Of a stretch of DNA of 64,000 nucleotides, positions 26,965 to 42,374 are shown piece after piece. The stretch is from assembly GCA_965219415.1 (NCBI GenBank), contig CBDCNP010000002.1, positions 2,816,001 through 2,880,000 of the forward strand. The letters run 5' to 3'. Source of the stretch: Candidatus Marinacidobacterales bacterium (GTDB lineage: Bacteria; Acidobacteriota; Vicinamibacteria; Marinacidobacterales; DATDRI01). The notes under the pieces are model-generated. The model was not told the origin of the DNA and searched no databases. It saw nothing but the letters and a program-made list of their open reading frames with translations. The number at the start of each line of letters is the position of its first letter. The stretch's first letter is position 1. The position numbers were made by a program, and so were the translations under genes.

Positions 26965-27072
26965 AAACGGTGTCAAGTCTGGTGGATATACTCTATAATG
27001 ACTCTTTCACATTCACGTTTACTCGACGGTCGCGTTTCGTCGCCCAGCGAAGTGAATCCCAAAGGAGGCACA

Positions 27073-28884
27073 TTGGGAGGGCACAAGCCAAAGCGTAAAG
27101 AAAGCTCGAAGGCGCGAAAAGGATCGAAATCCAAGAAGAAGAAGGGGGCGGCTTCTAAAGGTTCCTTGCGCGTCGTCAAAGGCAAGTCGAAACAGATCGA
27201 GCTGCCGCTCACTGCCAAGGAGCGAAGAAAGCGATCTTCGCTAAAACTCGTAAGCCCCCCGAAGAATGCCGACAAAGCGGCGGAGCCCGCGACTGCCCAA
27301 CCGGCGAAACAGACGGGGCCCAAGAGTCCACCCCGAGTCTCTGCAGAAACTCTCGCCACCCGGCAACGCGAAATTTCGGTATCCGAGTTCTTCACTCGGA
27401 ACCGTCATCTCCTAGGATTCGATAATCCACAAAAGGCGCTGCTGACGACAGTCAAAGAAGCCGTGGACAACTCCCTCGACGCGTGTGAAGAAGCCGGTAT
27501 CTTGCCCGATCTCGAGGTGACGATAGAGACTCTGGCCGAAGACCGATTCCGCATTGCCGTTCAGGACAACGGCCCGGGCATCGTAAGGGCCCAGATCCCG
27601 AAGATCTTCGCCAAGCTGCTCTACGGCTCCAAGTTTCACACTTTGAAGCAAAGCCGCGGCCAACAAGGCATCGGCATCTCTGCAGCTTCCATGTATGGCC
27701 AACTCACGACCGGCAAACCTGTAAAAATCTGGTCGCGAACCGGAAAGAAGAAGCCGGCTCACTATTATGAGATGCATATCGACACCCGGACTAATCAACC
27801 CGAGGTCGTCAAGGACGATAAGCTCTCGAGCTGGAACCTCGACCACGGAACGCGGGTGGAGATCGAGCTCGAGGGCACCTACAAGAGAGGCCGACGCTCG
27901 GTCGACGACTACATCGAGCAAACGGCCATTGCTAATCCGCACGCTTCGATCAAATACATGCCCCCCGGCGGGGAGGCGGTGATTTACGAGCGTGCCACCA
28001 AAGAGCATCCGCGGGAAACGGTCGCGATCAAGCCCCACCCTTACGGGGTCGAACTGGGTGTGTTGATCAAGATGCTCAAGGAAACCCGCTCCCGCTCCCT
28101 CAAAGGAGCACTCATGGACGACTTCTCCCGTGTCTCCTCCAAGGTGGCCAACCAGATCGTCGAAAAGGCGGGACTTCGACCGGAGAACCGCCCGAAGAAA
28201 CTCTCGCGGGTTGACGTCGAGAAGATCTTTCGCGCCATCCCGGCGGTGAAGATCATGGCCCCTCCCACCAACTGCCTAGCCCCCATCGGTGAGGAAGCCA
28301 TCGTGTCCGGCCTCAAGAAACGGATCGAGGCCGATTTCTACGAGGCGAGCACTCGCTCACCGAGCGTCTACCGTGGCAATCCTTTCCAGGTCGAGGTCGG
28401 GGTGGCGTACGGAGGCTCTTTGGCGGCGGAAGAGCTGGCCGATGTTTTTCGCGTTGCCAATCGGGTCCCGCTTCAGTACCAAGCCTCGGCTTGCGCCATC
28501 AGCAAGGCGGTCATCGGTACCGATTGGAGGAACTACGGGCTCCAGCAGTCACGCAGTGCCGTACCGACCGGACCCATGATTCTGTTCGTTCACATCGCCT
28601 CGGTCTGGGTGCCCTTCACTTCTGAGAGCAAGGAAGCCATCGCACATTACCCAGAGATACTGAAAGAGCTCCGCCTGGGCCTCCAGGAAGTCGGAAGGAA
28701 ACTCGGCGCCCACATCCGACGGAGGAAGCGAGAAGCGGCGGAGACCAAGAAGCTGGCATACATTCAAAAGTACATCCCGCAAATCGGGATTGCATTGCAG
28801 GACATACTCTCCTTGACCAACAAGCAACGGGACAAGACGGTCAAGGTGCTCACCGACACGCTGGAGAGGAGTCGCAAGGTATGA
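27073..28884 (+). CDS. top6B: DNA topoisomerase VI subunit B
   Basis: ISVSEFF..N.HLLGF, GHKL motifs [51 protein letters not shown] 27073 follows GGAGG (ORF track starts at 26998). Confidence 0.95.
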
Positions 28885-30032
28885 GAGCCACCCAGGCCAA
28901 GCGCTACGCCGCCGACGTAAAGCGAAAGAACAAGCGGCTAGATCAGAACACGCTCAAGCTCATCAGCGGGACGGCGGACGAGACGAATCGGAAGATCCTG
29001 AGACGCGGCAAACCCGATTTGAAGTTCCCCGTTCGGTCGCTCTCTAACGTCAGCTATTCGAAACGAAGCGGCTATCTCGAGATCGGAAAACAGAAGAAAG
29101 TGCGAACGCTCACGGTGTCCACGGTGAAGACCTTTGCGCAAACGCTTCGCATGATGTCGCTCTCCAAGAATCTCATCGAAACCAACGACTTCGCCACCAA
29201 ACGAGACGCCTACTACCAGTCCAAGAACTGGGGCGACGCCGGATTCCAGGAGCAAACCGAGTCCGATACGGTCATGGACGACATCGAAGCGATGTTCTCC
29301 ATGCACAAAGTGAGTCGAGAGCAACTCCGGTTCACTCCCGACGAGCATGGCGGCGCCGTGGCCGGCCAGCTTGTTGTCTACGACCCCGATATCGAGACCG
29401 GCGCGGTGGAGCGGATCGATTGCACCCGTTTCGGCTCCGGCGCTTACTCGATCCCGAGCTCGGTGGAACATTTATCGTTCGAGACAAACGCCAAGTTCGT
29501 CCTCGCCATCGAGACCGGTGGCATGTTTCAAAGGCTGCAGAGCCACAAGTTCTGGCAGAAGGCCAAATGCATTCTGGTATCGATGGGAGGGGTGCCAACG
29601 CGCGCCACCCGCCGTTTCATCCGCAAGCTTTCCGAAGAGGCGAAGATTCCGGTGTACGCTTTCGTTGATTGCGATCCTTACGGCATCTCCAACATCTACC
29701 GCACGCTCAAGGTGGGTTCCGGAAACGCCGCCCACATCAATCAATTTTTCTGTGTCCCGAGCGCCCGCTACCTAGGGGTGACACCTCAGGATATTCGGGA
29801 CTACAAGCTCCCGACCCACCCACTCAAAGAGGTCGACATCAAGCGCGCCAAAGACGCCCTCAAGAACGATCCTTTCTTCAAGGGCGAGCCCGCTTGGACA
29901 CAAGCCATCACCCAATTGTTGAAGATGGGGGTGCGCGCCGAACAGCAGGCCCTGGCGAAGTGGGGGTTGAACTACGTACTCGAGGAATACCTTCCGCAGA
30001 AACTGAAGAAGGCGAGCAAGTTCCTTCCCTGA
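28881..30032 (+). CDS. top6A: DNA topoisomerase VI subunit A (Spo11 family)
   Basis: TKRDAYY (catalytic Tyr), [26 protein letters not shown] and DCDPYG, AEQQAL. ATGA overlap with top6B. Confidence 0.95.
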
Positions 30033-31386: not shown

Positions 31387-31437
31387 TGTTGCAGATATGA
31401 GACAATGGGCAGAAGTTACTGTGGCAATCGTGACACA
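31387..31437 (+). promoter_or_regulatory. Pair of putative enhancer (UAS) sites for a sigma54 activator
   Basis: TGT-N12-ACA at 31387-31404 (TGTTGCAGATATGAGACA) and 31420-31437 (TGTGGCAATCGTGACACA), 33 bp apart, about 80-130 bp upstream of the -24 element. Confidence 0.6.
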
Positions 31438-31517
31438 GTCCGGTTGGCACCCGCCGGCGTGCCGGCCCAACTCTTTTACCATCAGAGGCTTACTCCGTGA
31501 GCCCGTCACGGCATTCC

Positions 31518-31533
31518 TGGCACAATGCTTGCT
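31518..31533 (+). promoter_or_regulatory. sigma54 (-24/-12) promoter upstream of lpxC
   Basis: TGGCAC-AATGC-TTGCT matches the TGGCAC-N5-TTGCW consensus exactly and ends 41 nt before the lpxC ATG. Confidence 0.85.
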
Positions 31534-31574: not shown

Positions 31575-32483
31575 ATGCATTGTCAAAGAACTCTAAAACG
31601 TGAAAGTGGCTGTGTGGGCATTGGCCTCCACTCGGGTCGAAAGGTGAGGCTAACCCTAAAACCTGCGCCGGCGGAAACGGGGATCGTTTTTAGAAGACTG
31701 GACCGCAATCATTTCGAGATCCCTGCCACCTCGGAACATCTTGCCCGTCTCAATTACGCAACCTGCCTTTCCAAGGGCGAAGTACGGATCGAGACGGTCG
31801 AGCACCTACTTGCGGCGCTCGCTACCCTGGGTGTGGACAACGCCATCGTCGAGCTCGACGCCCCCGAGGTTCCCATCATGGATGGCAGTGCCGCACCCTT
31901 CATCTACCTGATCCACGAGGCGGGGCTACGGAACTTGTCGAAAGAGCGTTCCTACTTGAAGCTCACCCGTCCCATCGCCGTGGAGTCAGAAGGTCGGCAA
32001 GTCGCCGCTTACCCAGCCGATTCGCTGCGAGTGACCTACACAATCAACTTCGACCATCCTCTGCTACGACATCAGCAGCACTCGCTCGAAATCGATGAGA
32101 GCTCGTTCGTCGATGAGCTCGCCCCGGCCCGCACCTTTGGGTTTCTCAAGGACGTGGAACAGCTTCGGCAAGCGGGGTTGGCGCTAGGTGGATCCTTGGA
32201 CAACGCGATCGTTCTCGGCGAGGCAGGAGTGCTCAACAACCCGCTTCGCTTCCCCGACGAGTTCGTCCGGCACAAGATCCTCGATATCCTAGGAGACCTG
32301 TCTTTGTTGGGTCGCCCATTGCTGGCTCATGTGGTCGCGGTTCGCGCCGGGCACGGTCTCCACACGCAGTTGGTGCGCCAGATCATCGAGTCGCCGGATT
32401 GCTGGGAGCAAGTAAGCTACCCGGAGCCGGTTACCGCGGCCGTCCCCGCGGCCAAGACTCCCGTCACCGAACCCGTCTCATAG
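31575..32483 (+). CDS. lpxC: UDP-3-O-acyl-N-acetylglucosamine deacetylase
   Basis: QRTL, GIGLHSG, TVEHLLAA, EVPIMDGSA, ARTFGF, GGSLDNA, EFVRHKILD, GHGLH. Confidence 0.98.
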   Translation: MHCQRTLKRESGCVGIGLHSGRKVRLTLKPAPAETGIVFRRLDRNHFEIPATSEHLARLNYATCLSKGEVRIETVEHLLAALATLGVDNAIVELDAPEVPIMDGSAAPFIYLIHEAGLRNLSKERSYLKLTRPIAVESEGRQVAAYPADSLRVTYTINFDHPLLRHQQHSLEIDESSFVDELAPARTFGFLKDVEQLRQAGLALGGSLDNAIVLGEAGVLNNPLRFPDEFVRHKILDILGDLSLLGRPLLAHVVAVRAGHGLHTQLVRQIIESPDCWEQVSYPEPVTAAVPAAKTPVTEPVS

Positions 32484-32579: not shown

Positions 32580-33017
32580 CTATCTAGGCGGTGATTCCTC
32601 GGTCGTTTCTAGCACGAAGGCCGTGACCTTGACGGTCGTGATTTTCTTGGCTCCGTTCGACGCGATGGAGACACTGCGCGTAATACGACCCTTGTATCGC
32701 CTCGTCTCCAGCATCACCTTGAGAGTCGTCGATTCACCGGGTCTTACCAATTGATCGGCGGTGAGTGCCGCCGTGCAACCGCAGGACGTAGAGATGCGTC
32801 CAATGTTCACTTCCTCGGTGCCAATGTTGTAGATCTCGAACTCGGCATCGAGGGTGAGGTTCTGCTCGACCTTGCCGAAGTCATGGGACTCCGGTGTCAC
32901 TTCGATCGCCGGCCCCTTCACCGGCTTGGTCGCACTCTTGCTCTGATGACCCGAAGCTGTCATCGCAGGAAGACCAATCCAAGCTAGCATCAACAAGGCG
33001 CCGGTTAGTCTCTTCAT
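32580..33017 (-). CDS. Secreted DUF1573-like Ig-fold protein
   Basis: Signal peptide, HDFGKV, N.G...L.I..I.TSCGCT, PGE...L.V. ATG 33017 follows AAGGAG. Confidence 0.75.
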   Translation of the reverse strand: MKRLTGALLMLAWIGLPAMTASGHQSKSATKPVKGPAIEVTPESHDFGKVEQNLTLDAEFEIYNIGTEEVNIGRISTSCGCTAALTADQLVRPGESTTLKVMLETRRYKGRITRSVSIASNGAKKITTVKVTAFVLETTEESPPR

Positions 33018-33048
33018 CGTATCTCCTTCGTTGCTCGTTTCGTGGAAG

Positions 33049-33441
33049 CTATGAATCTTCACTTTCCTGGTCACCGGATTGGTCCATTCGGTCCGTTTGG
33101 CCGGAGTCGATAGTCTTCATCCCCTCGGCCCCTCCGGTCAGCCTCTTCATATAAGCGCCTAGCCTTTCGTTTTCGTAAGTCACGGTATTCAAGAACAGAC
33201 TCTCGACTAGATAGCGCTTCCTTGAATCCTCGTCCATCTCGTCGACGAGGTGGTCGATCTCTTGCATCATGTCCTCGAAAGTCGCCTTGAGCTCCTGCTT
33301 CAGAGTGACTTCACGATAGAGTGATTCCAAAACGTAGAGGAGATCTCCATCGAGTGGAATCTCATGACCAGTCAGCATTCGTATTTTCTTGAGCTCGCCA
33401 GCGCCGACTTGGTTAATTTTGGTTCTATTCATGCCGGGCAT
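33049..33441 (-). CDS. Hypothetical acidic helical protein
   Basis: ORF starts 3 nt after the STAS gene stop; no recognised motif. Confidence 0.65.
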   Translation of the reverse strand: MPGMNRTKINQVGAGELKKIRMLTGHEIPLDGDLLYVLESLYREVTLKQELKATFEDMMQEIDHLVDEMDEDSRKRYLVESLFLNTVTYENERLGAYMKRLTGGAEGMKTIDSGQTDRMDQSGDQESEDS

Positions 33442-33444
33442 CCT

Positions 33445-33780
33445 TCAAAAACTCTCCAGAGCAGTTTTTTCTTCACGGTAAACATCTACCAGATTATGAA
33501 GTCCCGTCAAACTGACCATCGTCTCCACTCGTTCCTGCAGCCCTACCAACTTCAGCGCTCCGGAGCGCTCCGACATGAGCCGATATATATCCATAAGACA
33601 GCCGATGGAAGCGCTGTCGATGTAGCTCACGTCCGAGAGATCGATAATTAGCTTGCGCGTCCCAGCCTCCATGAGCCCGGAGACTTCGCCAAAAAAATCA
33701 GTCAATTTGGGATACACCAGTTTGTCTTCCTTGATGCGGACTATTTTTACTTCGCCCGATGATTCAATTTGGAGATTCAT
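33445..33780 (-). CDS. STAS-domain anti-sigma factor antagonist
   Basis: IIDLSDVSYIDSASIG.L with the phosphorylatable Ser; 111 aa. Confidence 0.9.
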   Translation of the reverse strand: MNLQIESSGEVKIVRIKEDKLVYPKLTDFFGEVSGLMEAGTRKLIIDLSDVSYIDSASIGCLMDIYRLMSERSGALKLVGLQERVETMVSLTGLHNLVDVYREEKTALESF

Positions 33781-34434
33781 AAGTATGTTTGCCTGCCTTT
33801 TCCATGGCAGCTCCCTTTGATAAATCGTCCCCGTTTGAAGCCAGCAGCACCCGCCCGAGCTCCAAGCGACCTCTATTGATTCGGCTCTTCACCGTGCCCT
33901 CCGGCAACCCGAGACGGACCACGATCTCCTGATAGGTTAGACCATGAATGTCTCTCAACACCACCGCCTCACGGAGCTTGGCGGGTAGCTCTTCGAGGGC
34001 CCGCGACAACAATTGCTTATGGTCCGACGCCTCCAGCGAGCGATGCGGATCGAATCGACCGGAAGCCATATCCTCCATGCTGATCTCTCGATCGACCAGC
34101 GCTTCGCGTTCCCTCCGGCCGCTCCGATAGTGATCGATACAATGGTTCCGGCTGACCGAATACAGCCAGGTACCGAAGTCGGCGCTACGGTCGAATCGAT
34201 GGAGAGATCGGAAGACGCGAAAGAAGATCTCCTGAGTCAGGTCTTCAGACTCTTGTACCGACCCGTGAACTTGTAGGCGATCCCGAACACCTTTCGGCGG
34301 TAGCGGCGGACGATCTCCTCCCAAGCCACCTCCCTCCCAACAGCGGACTGGCGTGCCACGCACTTGTCGATGAGTGCCCGATCGGTAAGATCAGAGGCGT
34401 GCGTCTCCGTCGATCGATTCTTACTAGGCGGCAC
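33764..34434 (-). CDS. ECF RNA polymerase sigma factor, frameshifted near 34255
   Basis: One frame gives AWEEIVRRYRRKVFGIAYKFTGRY; another continues EDLTQEIFFRVFRSLHRFD..ADFGTWLYSVSRNHCID...LRDIHGLTYQEI...GTVKSRINRGR. Start is approximate. Confidence 0.8.
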
Positions 34435-36659: not shown

Positions 36660-37423
36660 CTAGGGAACGCGAGCTAACGTGAGGACGTCCACCGACCGGG
36701 CACCGCCGCGGAGCAACGCCCGCGTACAGGCCTCCGCCGTCGCACCTGTTGTGAAGACGTCATCGACTAGCAATAGACGCTCGCGCCGGAGCCAAGCTGG
36801 TAGCTGCGCGCGGTAGGCTCCAGCCGCGTTTCGTCGGCGCGCACCCGCGCTCAACCAGATTGAGGAGGACGCGGCGCGACTTTGACCAAGATCGAGCAGC
36901 AGGGTCGCTTGGCAGCCCTTGCGATTGACCTCGCCAACAACTCCGCTTGGTTGTATCCGCGCTCACGACGACGACGCCAATGAAGTGGCACCGGGACCAC
37001 CGCCGCCCCAGCATCCAGCTCGCCCGTGGCGAGGATCGAGCGAAACGCCAGCCTCCCGAGTGTCGCGGCTACACGCGATCGCCCCCGGAACTTCAGGGAG
37101 AGGAGCGTCTCCTTCAGGCCCCCATCGTATGGCCCCAACGCGCGAGCGCGGCGGAAGCATCGACCTCTTTCCACACGGCACGAGCCACATAGTCCTGGCG
37201 CCACCGTCTCCGCGAAGGGCATGCCGCAACGGGGGCAGTAGGGCTGTGTGATCACTGGCATCGACTGCCAGCAAAGATCGCAGATGGGCCCCTTGAGCGG
37301 CCACTCGAGAAATACCCGGCAAATGAGGCAAGTCGATGGGAACCCAATAGCCACGAGCCCCCCGAGCATGGTTCGCAGCAGACCAACCCCGCGGGAGACG
37401 CCCGACCTGGCCTGACCCGACAT
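36660..37423 (-). pseudogene. comF: ComF family (double zinc ribbon + PRTase), frameshifted near 36855
   Basis: CLIC..C..C..CPRC..CGSC, VPVPLH..R..ERGYNQA; the second frame gives RRRN...LLVDDVFTTGAT. Confidence 0.85.
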
Positions 37424-37438
37424 CCCCTGATTGGAACC

Positions 37439-38803
37439 TCAGGAGGTGGACCAAGTCGGAGCCGGTCGAATTGCAGGTTCCGGTCGGGCCGCGGCGCGTA
37501 CGCTGAGATGGATCGAGTTCCATCTACCACAATGCTCGCAGTAGTCGCTCCACTCTGGGTACGTGGTCTTGCAGGAGCCGCAGCCATAGTCCTGCATCAA
37601 TCCACCGACCTCGCCGAGAACCGTCTTGCTCTTACTAAGCGCTTCCTTGAAGTCGCCCTTGCTTTCCAAGACTCGCGCGATGTAGACGTGGAGAGCTGGA
37701 AGACCACTTACCATGTCTTCAATCTGGCGGAACTCGCCGAGGGCCTCGTCCAGCATGAAGAGTCGATAATACAGCTTACCGAGGCTGTACCTGAGCGGTG
37801 CTTCGTTTTCGGACAAGACGATGGCCTGCTTCCAAGTTGCGATCGCTTCTTCGGGCAGCTCCGCCCTGAGATAATGATTTTGAACCGCAGCGAGTAGTTC
37901 GGTGGAACCCGTGGTTTGAAAACCCTTTCGCCAGACGGAGAGCGCCTCGTCGGCGTCGCCAGCTTCGATGTGGGCGTCCCCAAGCTTTATATGAGCCGGT
38001 ACGAACCCGCTGTCACGCTTGAGAACGGAGTTGAAGGAAGCGATGGCCTCCTTGACGTCTCCTCGCGAAAGCTGCTCCCGACCCACCTCGAATCGGATAC
38101 CGACTGAGGCTTCCTGCGCCGCTTCCTTTTCGGTGGTGAGCGTTAGCATCTTTTCTATCTTCGGTTGCAGCTCGTCGGCAGCCGCCCAGTCTTTTTGCTT
38201 GATCTTCAGGTCACGGAGCTTTCGGTGAGCAGAGACGGTGGTTCGAGGATCGAGCTGGATGATGCGCTTCAAGACTTCCTCGGCACGTTCCCAATCACCG
38301 AGGTCGAGATAGGCGTCCGATAAGCAGTAAAGCGCCATCAGGTGCTCGGGCGCCTCCACGATAGCTCGCTCCAGCGAGGCCGCGGCTTCACGGTACCGCT
38401 TCAGGGCTCGTAGGCTGTCGCCCCGCTTGATCAGTGCGTTCAGGTGATCCGGCTCCCGCGCCAGCACGTCGTCGAATCGAGCAACGGCCTGCTGGTAGCG
38501 TCCATTGACCATATCGTCCAGGCCGTGGAGATAGAGATCCTCGGTTCTCTCGTGGGCCCGGTGAAGCCGCTGCGTCCTCCAGTTTTGGGCGAATCGTCGC
38601 GCCCCTCCAGCGATGTCGAAAAAGAGGATGAGTGCCGCTCCCGCGCCAAAGGCTCCCATCAGAGCCATCCAGAGCTCCAAGCTCAGGGGTCTCAGGAGCG
38701 CCAAGCTGATCTCCACCGGCGTCCGGTTCATGGCTATCGTGGAGGCCAAGAACCAGACCGCCCCGAATATCAGCAGCAGGCTGAAAAGTGTCTTGATTCT
38801 CAT
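37439..38803 (-). CDS. LapA-domain + LapB(YciM)-like TPR protein with C-terminal rubredoxin
   Basis: Two N-terminal TM segments with the LapA-like N.TPV.I.L pattern, TPR repeats, YGCGSC...W...CEHCGRWNSI. Confidence 0.75.
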   Translation of the reverse strand: MRIKTLFSLLLIFGAVWFLASTIAMNRTPVEISLALLRPLSLELWMALMGAFGAGAALILFFDIAGGARRFAQNWRTQRLHRAHERTEDLYLHGLDDMVNGRYQQAVARFDDVLAREPDHLNALIKRGDSLRALKRYREAAASLERAIVEAPEHLMALYCLSDAYLDLGDWERAEEVLKRIIQLDPRTTVSAHRKLRDLKIKQKDWAAADELQPKIEKMLTLTTEKEAAQEASVGIRFEVGREQLSRGDVKEAIASFNSVLKRDSGFVPAHIKLGDAHIEAGDADEALSVWRKGFQTTGSTELLAAVQNHYLRAELPEEAIATWKQAIVLSENEAPLRYSLGKLYYRLFMLDEALGEFRQIEDMVSGLPALHVYIARVLESKGDFKEALSKSKTVLGEVGGLMQDYGCGSCKTTYPEWSDYCEHCGRWNSIHLSVRAAARPEPAIRPAPTWSTS

Positions 38804-38815
38804 CTACGCTCCAGT

Positions 38816-39802
38816 TTAATCCAAACCATACCGTTTGCGCTTCTCCCATAGCGCCTTCCGGCTGATTCCCAAAATCTTGGCGGCACGGGTCTGGTTCCCT
38901 CGTGCGTAACGGAGAGTCCGCTCGATGTAGCTTTTTTCGACCTCAGCCAGAGTCGGTTTGTCCTTACTTCCCAGCCGGAACGTTACCGAAGGACTGTCCA
39001 AAATGGACTCGGGCAGATCGGCGCGCTCTATGCGAGACCCCTGCGCCACGAGCCCAGCACGTTCCACGGCTCCCTTGAGCTCACGGATATTCCCCGGCCA
39101 AACGTAGTTGCGAAACGCCTCCAAAACGTCGTCCGCGAACTCCTCGGGGAAATTTCCGCCCAGCCGCTCGCCCTCTCGCTGGAGGAAGTGTTGCGCTAAG
39201 GGAATGATGTCGTCCCGGCGTTCCCGAAGCGGCGGCAACTGAATCCAGAAAACACTCAGCCGGTGAAACAGGTCACGCCGAAAAGACTTGCGCTCCACCG
39301 CCTCCATCAAGTTGCCCGTACTCGATGCGACCATGCGTGCCTGAACGGTGAGCGTCCGAGTCCCACCGACCCGTTCATACGTCTTGTCTTCCACGACCCG
39401 AAGCAGCTTCGCCTGAAGCGCCGGCTCCGGCTCTCCGATCTGGTCTAAAAAGATCGTGCCTTCGCCTGCGAGCTCTAGCTTGCCGGGCTTGGTCTCCTGA
39501 GCTCCGGTAAAGGCACCCTTCTCGTATCCGAACAACTCGCTTTCCATGAGTTCAGCCGGGATGGTTGGGAGATCCACCTTGACCATTGGATCACCGGCCC
39601 GCTTCCCCCAATAGTGAATCGCGCCAGCCGCCAAATCCTTTCCGGTTCCGCTTTCCCCGGAAAGCAAAACGTTAGTGGGTGCGTTGGCGAGCCGATGCAA
39701 TAGGGCGACGATGTCGACCATCTGCGGGTCGTGAGCAACGAAGGCACTCGAGAGCTCACGGGCCGCTGCTCCGTCCTTCTTGGTATCGGTCGCGTCGGAC
39801 AT
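38816..39802 (-). CDS. sigma54 enhancer-binding protein (AAA+ and Fis HTH) with no N-terminal sensor domain
   Basis: GESGTGKD, ESELFGYEKGAFTGA, FLDQI, FRRDLFHRL, WPGNIREL, GNQTRAAKILGISR. Confidence 0.92.
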   Translation of the reverse strand: MSDATDTKKDGAAARELSSAFVAHDPQMVDIVALLHRLANAPTNVLLSGESGTGKDLAAGAIHYWGKRAGDPMVKVDLPTIPAELMESELFGYEKGAFTGAQETKPGKLELAGEGTIFLDQIGEPEPALQAKLLRVVEDKTYERVGGTRTLTVQARMVASSTGNLMEAVERKSFRRDLFHRLSVFWIQLPPLRERRDDIIPLAQHFLQREGERLGGNFPEEFADDVLEAFRNYVWPGNIRELKGAVERAGLVAQGSRIERADLPESILDSPSVTFRLGSKDKPTLAEVEKSYIERTLRYARGNQTRAAKILGISRKALWEKRKRYGLD

Positions 39803-39803
39803 T

Positions 39804-40216
39804 CTAGTGCCTCAATGCGCGCTCACTCTTCGGTTGAATGCCTCGTCGCTCTTCGCGACTGCCGCCTGACCACCTCGAGTTTGAGCAACCAGCTGGCTTG
39901 GCGGCCCTCACCCGCTTCGGGCCTACGCCCTGCGCGGCGGCTGAAGGCTCCGTTCGCGCGCTTGGCCTCGCGCTCCTCTATCAATGCCGCGGGGCCCCAC
40001 CCCCACGGCTCTCGCTTCGCTCACACTGCGCTCGGGCTGAAGGCTCCCATCAACTGCGGCGGGGCCCCCAGGCTCGTCCCAACGCCCGCTTTCTCAACTG
40101 CGGCCTCACTCCTCGTTCGGCCGCTGGCCTCTGCTCGACAAGCTCGCTGCGGCCGGCGGCGGCTGCGGGACAGCTGATGGCTCCTCGCGCCGCCTTCAGC
40201 TGCCTGCACGAAGCCG
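39804..40216. repeat. Modular intergenic repeat, copy 5 (longest, composite)
   Basis: CTAG..TCAATGCGCGCTCACTC, GCTGAAGGCTC twice, GGGGCCCCACCCCC (39991-40004), second GGGGCCCCC at 40061. Confidence 0.75.
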
Positions 40217-40585
40217 TCAACTGGCGATCGCCAGACGCCCCGCGTCTCCCCAGAGCCGCTCCAAGTTGTAATAGGCCCGGCTACGCGGAGTGAAGAGGTG
40301 AACCACGAAATCCACGTAGTCCATCAAGATCCAGTCGCCCCGCGGATAACCTTCCACGTGATCCGGCTTGATACCCTTCTTAGCAAGCGCTTCCTCGACC
40401 GCATCCGCGATAGCCTTCAACTGTCGATTCGAACTTCCACTCGTCAGTAAGAAGAAGTCGGTAAAGCTGGCCAGTCCCCTCAAATCCAACACCACCAGAT
40501 CGGTGGCCTTCTTTCCCTGAGACGCCTTAACCGCCACCCGTAACTCTTTGCCCATGCTTCGCAGTGTTAGCTTCTTCTGTGTCAA
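40217..40585 (-). CDS. rsfS: Ribosomal silencing factor
   Basis: KKA.D...LDL, DFF...SG.S.RQ..AI, W.LMDY.D.VVH.F....R.YY.LE.LW. Confidence 0.95.
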   Translation of the reverse strand: MTQKKLTLRSMGKELRVAVKASQGKKATDLVVLDLRGLASFTDFFLLTSGSSNRQLKAIADAVEEALAKKGIKPDHVEGYPRGDWILMDYVDFVVHLFTPRSRAYYNLERLWGDAGRLAIAS

Positions 40586-40611
40586 TCCCTTACCTGGCCC
40601 TTAGCTGGCCG

Positions 40612-42374
<1,763 letters not shown>

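What the first reader, a model, noticed from the sequence alone, without database searches (positions are those of the whole stretch)
37439..39802. Sensor-less bEBP coupled to a LapA-LapB fusion: candidate LPS homeostasis circuit acting on nearby lpxC
Seen: a bEBP with GAFTGA and HTH but no input domain lies 12 nt upstream of a membrane TPR/rubredoxin LapAB-like gene, about 5 kb from sigma54-driven lpxC. Known: sensor-less bEBPs such as PspF and HrpR/S are controlled in trans by partner proteins, and LapB senses LPS and controls LpxC. Inference, untested: LapAB could regulate this bEBP, linking envelope status to lpxC transcription. This is my best candidate for an undescribed system in the window.
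Basis: inference. Interest (0 to 1): 0.7.

Follow-up and report, generated by a model that had tools for sequence, protein, structure and literature searches.

The report
Input-less sigma-54 activator with LapB-like partner
A conserved gene pair in uncultured marine Acidobacteriota joins an unusual sigma-54 activator that has no sensor domain to a membrane protein resembling the LPS regulator LapB, but the nearby lpxC gene is probably switched on by a different regulator, not by this pair.

Summary
A 328-aa bEBP (38816-39802, minus strand) has an AAA+ domain, GAFTGA and an HTH but no input domain. It lies 12 nt upstream of a 454-aa protein (37439-38803) with two TM segments, TPRs and a CxxC..CxxC motif. 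lpxC lies about 5 kb away behind a perfect sigma-54 promoter and two TGT-N12-ACA enhancer sites.

The pair is conserved in two families of Ca. Marinacidobacterales (23 of 24 loci). The proposed circuit onto lpxC is not supported:
- The sigma-54 lpxC promoter and its enhancer occur across the phylum, including genomes that lack this bEBP type.
- An NtrYX-like system, also present in this genome, is encoded directly after lpxC in many families and tracks the promoter.
- The bEBP's nearness to lpxC follows from rsfS-lpxC synteny.
- A canonical lapA-lapB operon lies elsewhere and is lost together with lpxC, whereas the LapB-like paralogue persists in lpxC-less relatives.

New here: the bEBP belongs to a family found across Acidobacteriota and linked to rsfS. 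In its clade the Walker B Glu is always Gln or His, and the glutamate-switch Asn is Asp.

Best reading: a PspF/PspA-style module controlled in trans, with an unknown target. Binding could not be tested. Interest is moderate.

The parts
38816..39802 (-). Input-domain-less sigma-54 activator-like protein (328 aa). Walker A GESGTGK, GAFTGA and a Fis-type HTH are kept. Walker B reads D-Q instead of D-E, and the glutamate-switch position is Asp instead of Asn.
   Evidence: It belongs to the rsfS-linked family and lies outside the clade of 22 canonical bEBPs (support 100/99).
37439..38803 (-). LapA/LapB-like inner-membrane protein (454 aa): 2 TM segments, a long helix, about 9 TPR hairpins, a CxxC..CxxC zinc ribbon and a conserved disordered tail PEPxIxPxPTWS.
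   Evidence: It is a divergent paralogue, not the canonical LapB.
38804..38815 (-). 12-nt spacer between the two genes (12-208 nt in orthologous loci).
40217..42323 (-). obg-nadD-rsfS, the housekeeping operon to which the bEBP is appended. In most relatives the rsfS stop abuts the bEBP start.
39803..40216 (.). 414-nt GC-rich spacer between rsfS and the bEBP carrying a repeated intergenic element. It is seen only in this genus. No sigma-54 promoter scoring 9 or more of 11 was found in it.
36851..37423 (-). ComF-like gene with a double zinc ribbon, downstream of the pair. The same neighbour follows the bEBP locus in Vicinamibacterales.
31575..32483 (+). lpxC. It is part of the finding but probably not a target of the pair.
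31518..31533 (+). Sigma-54 promoter of lpxC (TGGCACAATGCTTGCT).
31387..31437 (+). Two TGT-N12-ACA enhancer sites (31387-31404 and 31420-31437), 131 and 98 nt upstream of the promoter.

Best explanation
The two genes form a conserved module.

The activator. It is an input-less member of a family found across Acidobacteriota and encoded right after nadD-rsfS. It is expressed with that housekeeping operon. It keeps the sigma-54 contact loop (GAFTGA) and a DNA-binding HTH, but its ATPase site is altered: Walker B is D-Q/H and the switch residue is Asp. It is therefore expected to bind ATP, to assemble, and to hydrolyse poorly or differently.

The partner. In Marinacidobacterales families f1 and f2 the activator has acquired a dedicated partner, a divergent paralogue of LapA+LapB anchored in the inner membrane with its TPRs and zinc ribbon in the cytoplasm. 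By analogy with PspA/PspF and HrpV/HrpS, and with LapB's adaptor role towards FtsH, I infer that this partner holds, releases or hands over the activator according to a membrane signal.

The target. Its promoter is unknown and is probably not lpxC. The lpxC sigma-54 promoter and its TGT-N12-ACA enhancer are most likely served by the NtrYX-like two-component system encoded at G000 C1:1434069-1437689.

Shown: the anatomy, the conservation, the altered ATPase motifs, the family placement, and the distribution of the promoter and of the NtrX-like regulator. Inferred: binding between the two proteins, the direction of control, and which protein binds the lpxC enhancer.
For: Pair and operon.
- The pair is adjacent in 23 of 24 f1+f2 loci; the 24th is at a contig end. 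It is adjacent in 20 of 21 MAG loci. These counts include the unpublished G007.
- The rsfS stop abuts the bEBP start in most relatives.
- All orthologues are 308-350 aa.
- All listed full-length proteins among the 120 closest proteins in the 5.8-billion set are 300-385 aa and carry no receiver domain.

ATPase site.
- Walker B is D-Q/H in 17 of 17 aligned orthologues.
- Among the 120 closest homologues it is D-Q/H in 113, D-E in none, and unparsed in 7.
- All 22 canonical bEBPs compared have N...D-E.
- PspF E108Q hydrolyses poorly, forms constitutive hexamers and still engages RNAP-sigma54 (PMC4132715, abstract only).

Family. The same type of bEBP follows rsfS in 32 of 77 sampled Acidobacteriota. 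It lies outside the canonical clade (100/99).

Partner.
- It has a LapB-like fold.
- The conserved tail PEPxIxPxPTWS is present in f1+f2 and missing in f3, where no bEBP is adjacent.

lpxC is served by another regulator.
- The 2x2 table of rsfS-linked bEBP against sigma-54 lpxC promoter is 20/12/23/22.
- The same enhancer motif occurs in genomes whose best matches to this bEBP lack its HTH.
- An NtrX-like orthologue (57-62% identical) lies in lpxC-ntrY-ntrX clusters in 7 of 20 fetched neighbourhoods.
- It lies within 8 kb of lpxC in 15 of 77 genomes.
- The promoter is present in 37 of 53 genomes with an NtrX-like hit of 54% identity or more, and in 0 of 13 with 51% or less.
- G005 has the bEBP but no NtrX-like orthologue, and it has lost the TGT-N12-ACA site.
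- In Desulfovibrio vulgaris an NtrC-family response regulator has lpxC as its single target (PMC3333781, passages read).
Against: - No test of binding between the two proteins could be run, and no target promoter was found.
- No sigma-54 promoter or shared palindrome turned up in 32 rsfS-bEBP loci.
- The pair may be neighbours only. The LapB-like protein persists in f3 without the bEBP, and a lone 84%-identical copy exists in this genome.
- This bEBP is the only bEBP gene within about 65 kb of lpxC in this genome. It was lost together with lpxC in f3.
- Asp at the switch position might restore hydrolysis, so 'poor ATPase' is an inference.
- The assignment of the enhancer to the NtrX-like protein rests on distribution and gene neighbourhood, not on a binding assay.
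- 16 genomes have an NtrX-like orthologue but no promoter by my criterion.
Confidence: 0.45

Rival explanations
1. The input-less bEBP binds the enhancer at 31387-31437 and drives sigma-54 transcription of lpxC. The LapA/LapB-like protein senses LPS or envelope status and restrains the bEBP.
For: - This is the nearest bEBP gene to lpxC, about 6 kb from its start; the next ones are about 73 and 94 kb away.
- The pair and lpxC lie 1.5-6.3 kb apart on one contig in 23 of 25 f1+f2 genomes.
- The partner has a LapB-like fold.
- The bEBP, lpxC and the partner's tail are all missing in f3.
Against: - The enhancer motif and promoter are conserved in genomes without this bEBP type.
- 12 of 32 genomes with the rsfS-linked bEBP lack the lpxC promoter.
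- rsfS lies 4-4.3 kb from lpxC in four members of the class that have no bEBP in between, and 10.6 kb away in a fifth.
- Its HTH (ISRKALWEKRKRYG) differs from that of the lpxC-linked NtrX-like proteins (ERSHLYRKMKSYG).
- G005 keeps the bEBP but has lost the site.
- The canonical lapA-lapB operon elsewhere tracks lpxC.
- Walker B lacks the catalytic Glu.
Confidence: 0.15
2. Neighbours without a partnership. The bEBP acts on its own or with another factor; in other lineages a DksA/TraR-type zinc-finger gene follows it. The LapB-like protein is an independent membrane TPR adaptor that happened to insert downstream.
For: - Outside this order the same bEBP family is followed by rlmH and a DksA/TraR-type gene, or by DksA-like plus ComF, and not by a LapB-like gene.
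- f3 keeps the LapB-like gene alone.
- A lone paralogue exists in this genome.
- In f2 the spacer is 19-208 nt and carries TAGAAT/TAGACT-like hexamers that could be the partner's own promoter (this reading is mine).
Against: - Adjacency and orientation are kept although the LapB-like protein has diverged to 50-56% identity and the bEBP to 59-64%.
- The tail motif co-occurs with the bEBP.
- The 12-nt spacing in this genus suggests coupled translation.
Confidence: 0.2
3. A brake or mixed-ring subunit. Because it binds ATP but hydrolyses poorly, the protein either clamps sigma-54 holoenzyme or co-assembles with a hydrolysing bEBP and tunes it, as HrpR/HrpS do. The membrane partner sets how much of it is free.
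For: - GAFTGA is kept while Walker B is D-Q/H throughout the clade.
- PspF E108Q engages RNAP-sigma54 without efficient hydrolysis, and DNA remodelling tolerates defective alternate subunits (PMC4132715, abstract).
- Family members elsewhere have lost GAFTGA or Walker B residues.
Against: There is no direct evidence. The conserved HTH argues for binding sites of its own. Asp at the switch position may compensate.
Confidence: 0.12

Closest known systems
PspF with PspA (E. coli phage-shock system), and HrpR/HrpS with HrpV
   Same: A bEBP made only of an AAA+ domain and an HTH, without an input domain. By analogy it would be controlled in trans by a partner protein encoded nearby and linked to the membrane.
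   Different: The partner here is an integral membrane protein with TPRs and a zinc ribbon of the LapB type, not a PspA/ESCRT-III-like coil. The bEBP lacks the Walker B Glu. It sits in the obg-nadD-rsfS operon. No target operon lies next to it. Binding is untested. (The PspF/PspA and HrpV facts are recalled; PMC3791423 and PMC3105312 were seen in a listing only.)
LapB (YciM) with LapA (YciS)
   Same: An N-terminal membrane anchor, a cytoplasmic TPR array and a C-terminal CxxC..CxxC metal site. The highest target-normalised TM-scores among the chains listed are to LapB chains. The N-terminus is LapA-like.
   Different: It scores far below the NCBIfam cut-offs (62.5 against 363 bits). Pfam Zn_ribbon_LapB was not reported at E 0.001. 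It is fused to a LapA-like part. The genome has a canonical lapA-lapB operon elsewhere. The paralogue persists in relatives without lpxC, lpxB and canonical lapB.
DVU2934 of Desulfovibrio vulgaris (sigma-54 response regulator whose single target is lpxC), and NtrYX systems
   Same: They set the precedent that lpxC can be transcribed from a sigma-54 promoter under a dedicated bEBP (PMC3333781, passages). The NtrX-like regulator of this genome fits that role.
   Different: Those regulators have a receiver domain and a kinase, whereas the bEBP of the finding has neither and belongs to another clade. I did not compare DVU2934's sequence or its binding motif (Figure 8 and the tables are not held as text). 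The role of NtrYX in the cell envelope is known to me only from titles and the openings of abstracts (PMC7240162, PMC13001219).
PspF E108Q laboratory variant
   Same: The same substitution, Walker B Glu to Gln, occurs naturally here.
   Different: Here it is fixed in a whole clade, together with Asn to Asp at the switch position. The biochemical consequence is untested.

Membership tests
Bacterial enhancer-binding proteins (sigma-54 activators) | AAA+ sigma-54 interaction domain (PF00158) with Walker A | tested here: met
   PF00158 at E 9.9e-56 over residues 22-187; GESGTGK present.
Bacterial enhancer-binding proteins (sigma-54 activators) | GAFTGA loop that contacts sigma-54 | tested here: met
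   GAFTGA is invariant in 17 of 17 orthologues. Among the 120 closest homologues, 91 have GAFTGA and 22 have GAFTDA.
Bacterial enhancer-binding proteins (sigma-54 activators) | Walker B D-E with catalytic Glu, paired with the glutamate-switch Asn | tested here: not met
   D-Q or D-H in 17 of 17 orthologues, and Asp at the switch position in 11 of 11. All 22 canonical comparators have Asn and D-E. The residue roles are recalled from PspF work and from the PMC4132715 abstract.
Bacterial enhancer-binding proteins (sigma-54 activators) | C-terminal Fis-type HTH | tested here: met
   HTH_8 at 284-325, E 5.7e-15.
Bacterial enhancer-binding proteins (sigma-54 activators) | Sigma-54 present in the genome | tested here: met
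   One rpoN at G000 C1:71534-72007.
PspF-type bEBPs controlled in trans | No N-terminal regulatory domain | tested here: met
   21 residues precede the AAA+ domain. Orthologues are 308-350 aa. No receiver domain appears in the Pfam listings of the closest homologues.
PspF-type bEBPs controlled in trans | Direct inhibitory binding by a partner protein | not testable with these tools
LapB (YciM) | Membrane anchor, cytoplasmic TPRs and a C-terminal rubredoxin-type Cys4 site | tested here: met
   Hydrophobic segments 1-27 and 42-66; CxxC at 408 and 422, invariant in 18 of 18 sequences. TM-scores normalised by target are 0.64-0.65 to 4zlh_B and 9up5_A.
LapB (YciM) | Reaches the curated family score (NCBIfam equivalog) | tested here: not met
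   Best score 62.5 bits against a cut-off of 363. The canonical copy in the same genome scores 208 bits, also under the cut-off but 3.3-fold higher, and it hits Pfam Zn_ribbon_LapB.
LapB (YciM) | Functional tie to LpxC, tested as co-occurrence with lpxC | tested here: not met
   Homologues (33-35% identical) are present in 16 of 16 f3 genomes. Those genomes lack LpxC (0 of 16 by protein search, 0 of 5 by Pfam), LpxB (0 of 4) and canonical LapB (0 of 5).
LapA (YciS) | LapA domain (PF06305) | tested here: inconclusive
   22.8 bits, under the 28-bit cut-off, over residues 26-88. The canonical LapA of this genome scores 52 bits.
NtrX-like regulator as the lpxC activator (rival part) | Receiver + AAA+ (GAFTGA, D-E) + HTH, with an NtrY-type kinase and DUF4390 upstream, and orthologues linked to lpxC | tested here: met
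   NF051870 NtrX at 483 bits (cut-off 600, not reached). NtrY_N, HAMP, PAS and HisKA in the kinase; DUF4390 upstream. lpxC-ntrY-ntrX clusters in 7 of 20 neighbourhoods. Binding to the enhancer was not tested.

The most novel reading that the evidence does not exclude
A LapB-like inner-membrane adaptor gates a naturally hydrolysis-impaired, input-less bEBP. When released, the bEBP binds sigma-54 holoenzyme or joins mixed rings with other activators. It then works as a membrane-controlled brake or tuner on sigma-54 promoters, possibly including lpxC alongside NtrYX. This would be a new way of coupling envelope state to sigma-54 transcription.
Probability: 0.12. Interest if true: 0.75.

Novelty: new variant of a known kind. 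Interest (0 to 1): 0.5.

Why it matters
Three points would matter if confirmed.

1. A whole natural clade of sigma-54 activator-like proteins lacks the catalytic Walker B glutamate yet keeps GAFTGA and an HTH. That gives a natural counterpart to the PspF E108Q trap variant, and raises the question of whether such proteins activate, clamp or tune sigma-54 transcription.

2. A LapB paralogue paired with a transcription factor would widen the known roles of the LapB scaffold beyond LpxC proteolysis.

3. As a by-product, lpxC is read from a sigma-54 promoter with a conserved enhancer in more than half of the sampled Acidobacteriota. It is often found in an lpxC-ntrY-ntrX cluster. This extends a single experimental case in Desulfovibrio to another phylum and makes transcriptional control of the committed LPS step testable there.

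Tried and rejected
- Complex prediction (bEBP alignment A3 with residues 66-454 of alignment A2).
- Target near the bEBP. I searched 32 rsfS-bEBP loci for a sigma-54 promoter scoring 9 or more of 11 and found none at a consistent place. I also searched for a shared perfect inverted repeat (5-nt arms, spacer 0-14) in 32 loci with the bEBP against 42 without; nothing was enriched.
- Promoter upstream of the bEBP or of the LapB-like gene in 16 loci of the order. The best scores were 5-7 of 11.
- Enhancer regulon. Genome-wide, 39 single TGT-N12-ACA sites match 11 or more of the 14 fixed positions of my consensus. Only lpxC has two side by side.
- Genome-wide promoter list. There are 34 intergenic sigma-54 promoter candidates scoring 10 or more. 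None could be assigned to this bEBP.
- Phyletic test of rsfS-linked bEBP against the lpxC promoter. No useful association (20/12/23/22).
- The f3 natural experiment. It does not discriminate, because lpxC, lpxB, canonical lapB, the NtrX-like gene and this bEBP are all missing there.
- Earlier notes of this scan. Nothing was held.
- Literature. Five full-text searches found no paper on a bEBP paired with a LapB-like protein or on sigma-54 control of lpxC in Acidobacteria. They used the terms lpxC/sigma-54/enhancer-binding protein; LapB/sigma54/lpxC/promoter; RpoN/lpxC/lipid A/regulon; Acidobacteria/enhancer-binding protein/sigma-54; and LapB/paralog/tetratricopeptide/rubredoxin/transcription. 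PMC3162934 has no occurrence of lpxC, lipid A, TPR or Acidobacteria.
Full report
**What is there.** The window is G000:C3:2816001-2880000 of an 8.05-Mb assembly. Close relatives are MAGs titled Vicinamibacteria or Candidatus Marinacidobacterales, phylum Acidobacteriota. The minus strand carries, in order:
- obg (41271-42323), nadD (40612-41292) and rsfS (40217-40585);
- a 414-nt spacer;
- the bEBP (38816-39802, 328 aa);
- 12 nt;
- the LapB-like gene (37439-38803, 454 aa);
- a ComF-like gene (36851-37423).

The bEBP has the sigma-54 interaction domain, lid and Fis-type HTH, with only 21 residues before them. The partner has two hydrophobic segments, a TPR array and CxxC at 408 and 422. It aligns full length but weakly to the NCBIfam LapB models: 62.5 bits against a cut-off of 363. 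In its AF2 model (pLDDT 82.4) the highest target-normalised TM-scores among the chains listed are to solved LapB chains, at 0.58-0.65.

lpxC (31575-32483, plus strand) lies behind TGGCAC-N5-TTGC at 31518-31532, the only perfect match in the window. Two TGT-N12-ACA sites lie at 31387 and 31420. The genome has one rpoN.

**Conservation of the pair.** I searched 41 genomes of the order with the LapB-like protein and found three families.
- In f1+f2, the bEBP lies directly upstream in 23 of 24 loci. The 24th is at a contig end.
- In public MAG records with 10-kb flanks the figure is 20 of 21.
- In f3 the LapB-like homologue is only 33-35% identical and lacks the tail PEPxIxPxPTWS. No bEBP lies beside it: 0 of 6 loci and 0 of 23; the tail comparison is.
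- Two weak hits, L129 and L130, were left out of these counts. The counts include the unpublished G007.

**The lpxC promoter.**
- In f1+f2, lpxC lies 1.5-6.3 kb from the pair on the same contig in 23 of 25 genomes. G034 is 270 kb apart, and in G007 the two lie on separate small contigs.
- A sigma-54 promoter precedes lpxC in 25 of 25 loci: 24 by a strict pattern, and G005 with TGGCGC.
- A TGT-N12-ACA site sits 96-104 nt upstream of the promoter in 22 of 25 loci.

**Why the link fails.**

The promoter is not special to this order.
- I drew 91 Acidobacteriota genomes and examined 77. I dropped G000, 10 genomes for redundancy, 1 without an LpxC match and 2 unpublished.
- By my criterion, 43 of the 77 have a sigma-54 promoter in front of lpxC. 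The criterion is GG-N10-GC with a score of 9 or more of 11, placed 25 to 160 nt upstream.
- With a nearly identical window the figure is 44 of 76. Controls gave 1 of 76 on the antisense strand, 2 of 76 far upstream and 0.72 of 76 in shuffles.
- The enhancer has the same form (TGTTGCA-N4-TGCAACA) across classes.

The bEBP type does not track the promoter.
- The bEBP belongs to a family that follows nadD-rsfS in 32 of the 77 genomes.
- Presence of that bEBP against presence of the promoter gives 20/12/23/22, which is no useful association.
- In five genomes with the promoter but no rsfS-linked bEBP, the best genome-wide matches do not carry the family's HTH signature.

Another regulator does track it.
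- A receiver-containing regulator whose best NCBIfam match is NtrX (483 bits, under the 600 cut-off) lies in lpxC-ntrY-ntrX clusters in 7 of 20 fetched neighbourhoods.
- It lies within 8 kb of lpxC in 15 of the 77 genomes.
- This genome has its orthologue at C1:1434069-1435445, 57-62% identical to the lpxC-linked ones. The next paralogue is 51% identical.
- Upstream of it lie an NtrY-type kinase, DUF4390 and nrdR.
- The promoter is present in 37 of 53 genomes with an NtrX-like hit of 54% or more, in 6 of 11 with 52-53%, and in 0 of 13 with 51% or less.
- Within the order, the orthologue (70% identity or more) was found in 22 of 24 f1+f2 relatives and in 0 of 16 f3 genomes.
- G005 lacks the orthologue but keeps the bEBP, and it is the one genome whose enhancer site is gone.

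The proximity is a by-product.
- In five other Vicinamibacteria, rsfS and lpxC lie 4-4.3 kb apart (10.6 kb in one) with no bEBP between them.
- The bEBP is therefore near lpxC simply because it follows rsfS.

There is an experimental precedent. [quoted passage not shown] I could not compare DVU2934's sequence or motif.

**Why the LapB-like protein is not the LPS sensor.**
- The genome has a canonical operon on contig C1: a KdsC-like hydrolase, lapA (LapA_dom 52 bits) and lapB (406 aa, with TPRs and Pfam Zn_ribbon_LapB; 208 bits on the NCBIfam LapB model).
- Canonical LapB was found in 5 of 5 f1+f2 genomes tested and in 0 of 5 f3 genomes.
- f3 also lacks LpxC (0 of 16 by protein search, 0 of 5 by Pfam) and LpxB (0 of 4, with a positive control).
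- f3 nevertheless keeps the LapB-like paralogue in 16 of 16 genomes.
- The paralogue's core role is therefore not tied to LpxC.

**What is unusual about the bEBP.**
- Walker B reads D-Q or D-H in 17 of 17 orthologues.
- Among the 120 closest proteins of the large collection it reads D-Q or D-H in 113, D-E in none, and 7 were not parsed by my expression.
- The residue that pairs with the Walker B Glu (Asn in PspF) is Asp in 11 of 11.
- All 12 other bEBPs of this genome and all 10 lpxC-adjacent bEBPs have Asn and D-E.
- In a maximum-likelihood tree those 22 canonical proteins sit on one side of a branch (support 100/99). The order's clade (100/99) and the rsfS-linked proteins sit on the other side. 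I dropped rows containing X or a stop before building the tree.
- Elsewhere in the family GAFTGA or Walker B is often degenerate.
- PspF E108Q is poor at hydrolysis, forms constitutive hexamers and still engages the holoenzyme (PMC4132715, abstract only).
- The numbering and roles of the PspF residues are recalled, not taken from a call.

**Most likely mechanism.**
- The bEBP is made together with a housekeeping operon; the rsfS stop abuts its start in most relatives.
- It has no sensor, so control must come in trans or through its altered nucleotide cycle.
- The conserved downstream membrane protein, with its cytoplasmic TPRs and a tail found only where the bEBP is present, is the obvious candidate.
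- Binding, the direction of control and the target are all inferred. I found no target.

**Verdict.** The gene pair is real and is a new variant of the bEBP type controlled in trans. The circuit onto lpxC is probably wrong. Interest is moderate.

Noticed in passing
window 31387-31533; loci L176-L345: lpxC has a sigma-54 promoter with a TGT-N12-ACA enhancer in 44 of 76 sampled Acidobacteriota genomes (1 of 76 on the antisense strand). It is often part of an lpxC-ntrY-ntrX cluster. This is a phylum-wide regulon that I did not find described in print.
   Followed up: yes
genomes G009-G039 (family f3, Ca. Marinacidobacterium and kin): This family appears to lack lipid A synthesis: LpxC 0 of 16 by protein search and 0 of 5 by Pfam, LpxB 0 of 4, canonical LapB 0 of 5. 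The genomes are 89-95% complete and several are single contigs of 3-4 Mb. It may be an LPS-less lineage of Acidobacteriota.
   Followed up: partly
G000:C3:2643779-2645140 (outside the window): A lone second copy of the LapB-like gene: 84% identical in protein and 79% in DNA over 1378 nt, with no similarity in the flanks. There is no bEBP beside it, and an integrase/transposase-like ORF lies 3.7 kb away.
   Followed up: partly
G000:C3:5184958-5185620 (outside the window): A second sigma-54 promoter (TGGCATCCATCTTGCT) with a TGT-N12-ACA site 79 nt upstream. It follows what reads as the 3' end of murA (my reading of the sequence) and precedes a 202-aa zinc-ribbon/RDD-family membrane gene. It may belong to the same regulon as lpxC.
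   Followed up: partly
window 39803-40216; also G000:C3 about 2788800-2789028: A GC-rich repeated intergenic element, sharing stretches such as ggtggggccccg and gagtgagcgcgc...cactagaa. It is inserted between rsfS and the bEBP in this genus only.
   Followed up: no
window 26998-30032: Genes for both subunits of a type IIB topoisomerase (Topo VI B and A/Spo11-like) are present in this bacterium.
   Followed up: no
locus L078 (G005), upstream of lpxC: In the one genome without an NtrX-like orthologue, the TGT-N12-ACA site is replaced by a different palindrome (ATCGTT-N10-AACGAT) and the promoter reads TGGCGC. This suggests a change of activator.
   Followed up: partly
G000:C3:2786822-2789029 (27-29 kb before the window): Three strong sigma-54 promoter candidates (scores 10-11 of 11) lie within 2.3 kb on both strands. 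Their targets were not annotated.
   Followed up: no
loci L149, L151, L154, L160, L161: Outside this order, the rsfS-linked bEBP is followed by rlmH and/or a DksA/TraR-type zinc-finger gene. In Vicinamibacterales its loop reads GAFTDA. The zinc-finger protein may be the partner in those lineages.
   Followed up: partly
window 32580-34363: Between the pair and lpxC lie an ECF sigma factor, a STAS-domain protein, a 130-aa ORF without a family and a DUF1573 protein. The content of this interval varies among relatives: the pair-lpxC gap ranges from 1.5 to 6.3 kb.
   Followed up: no
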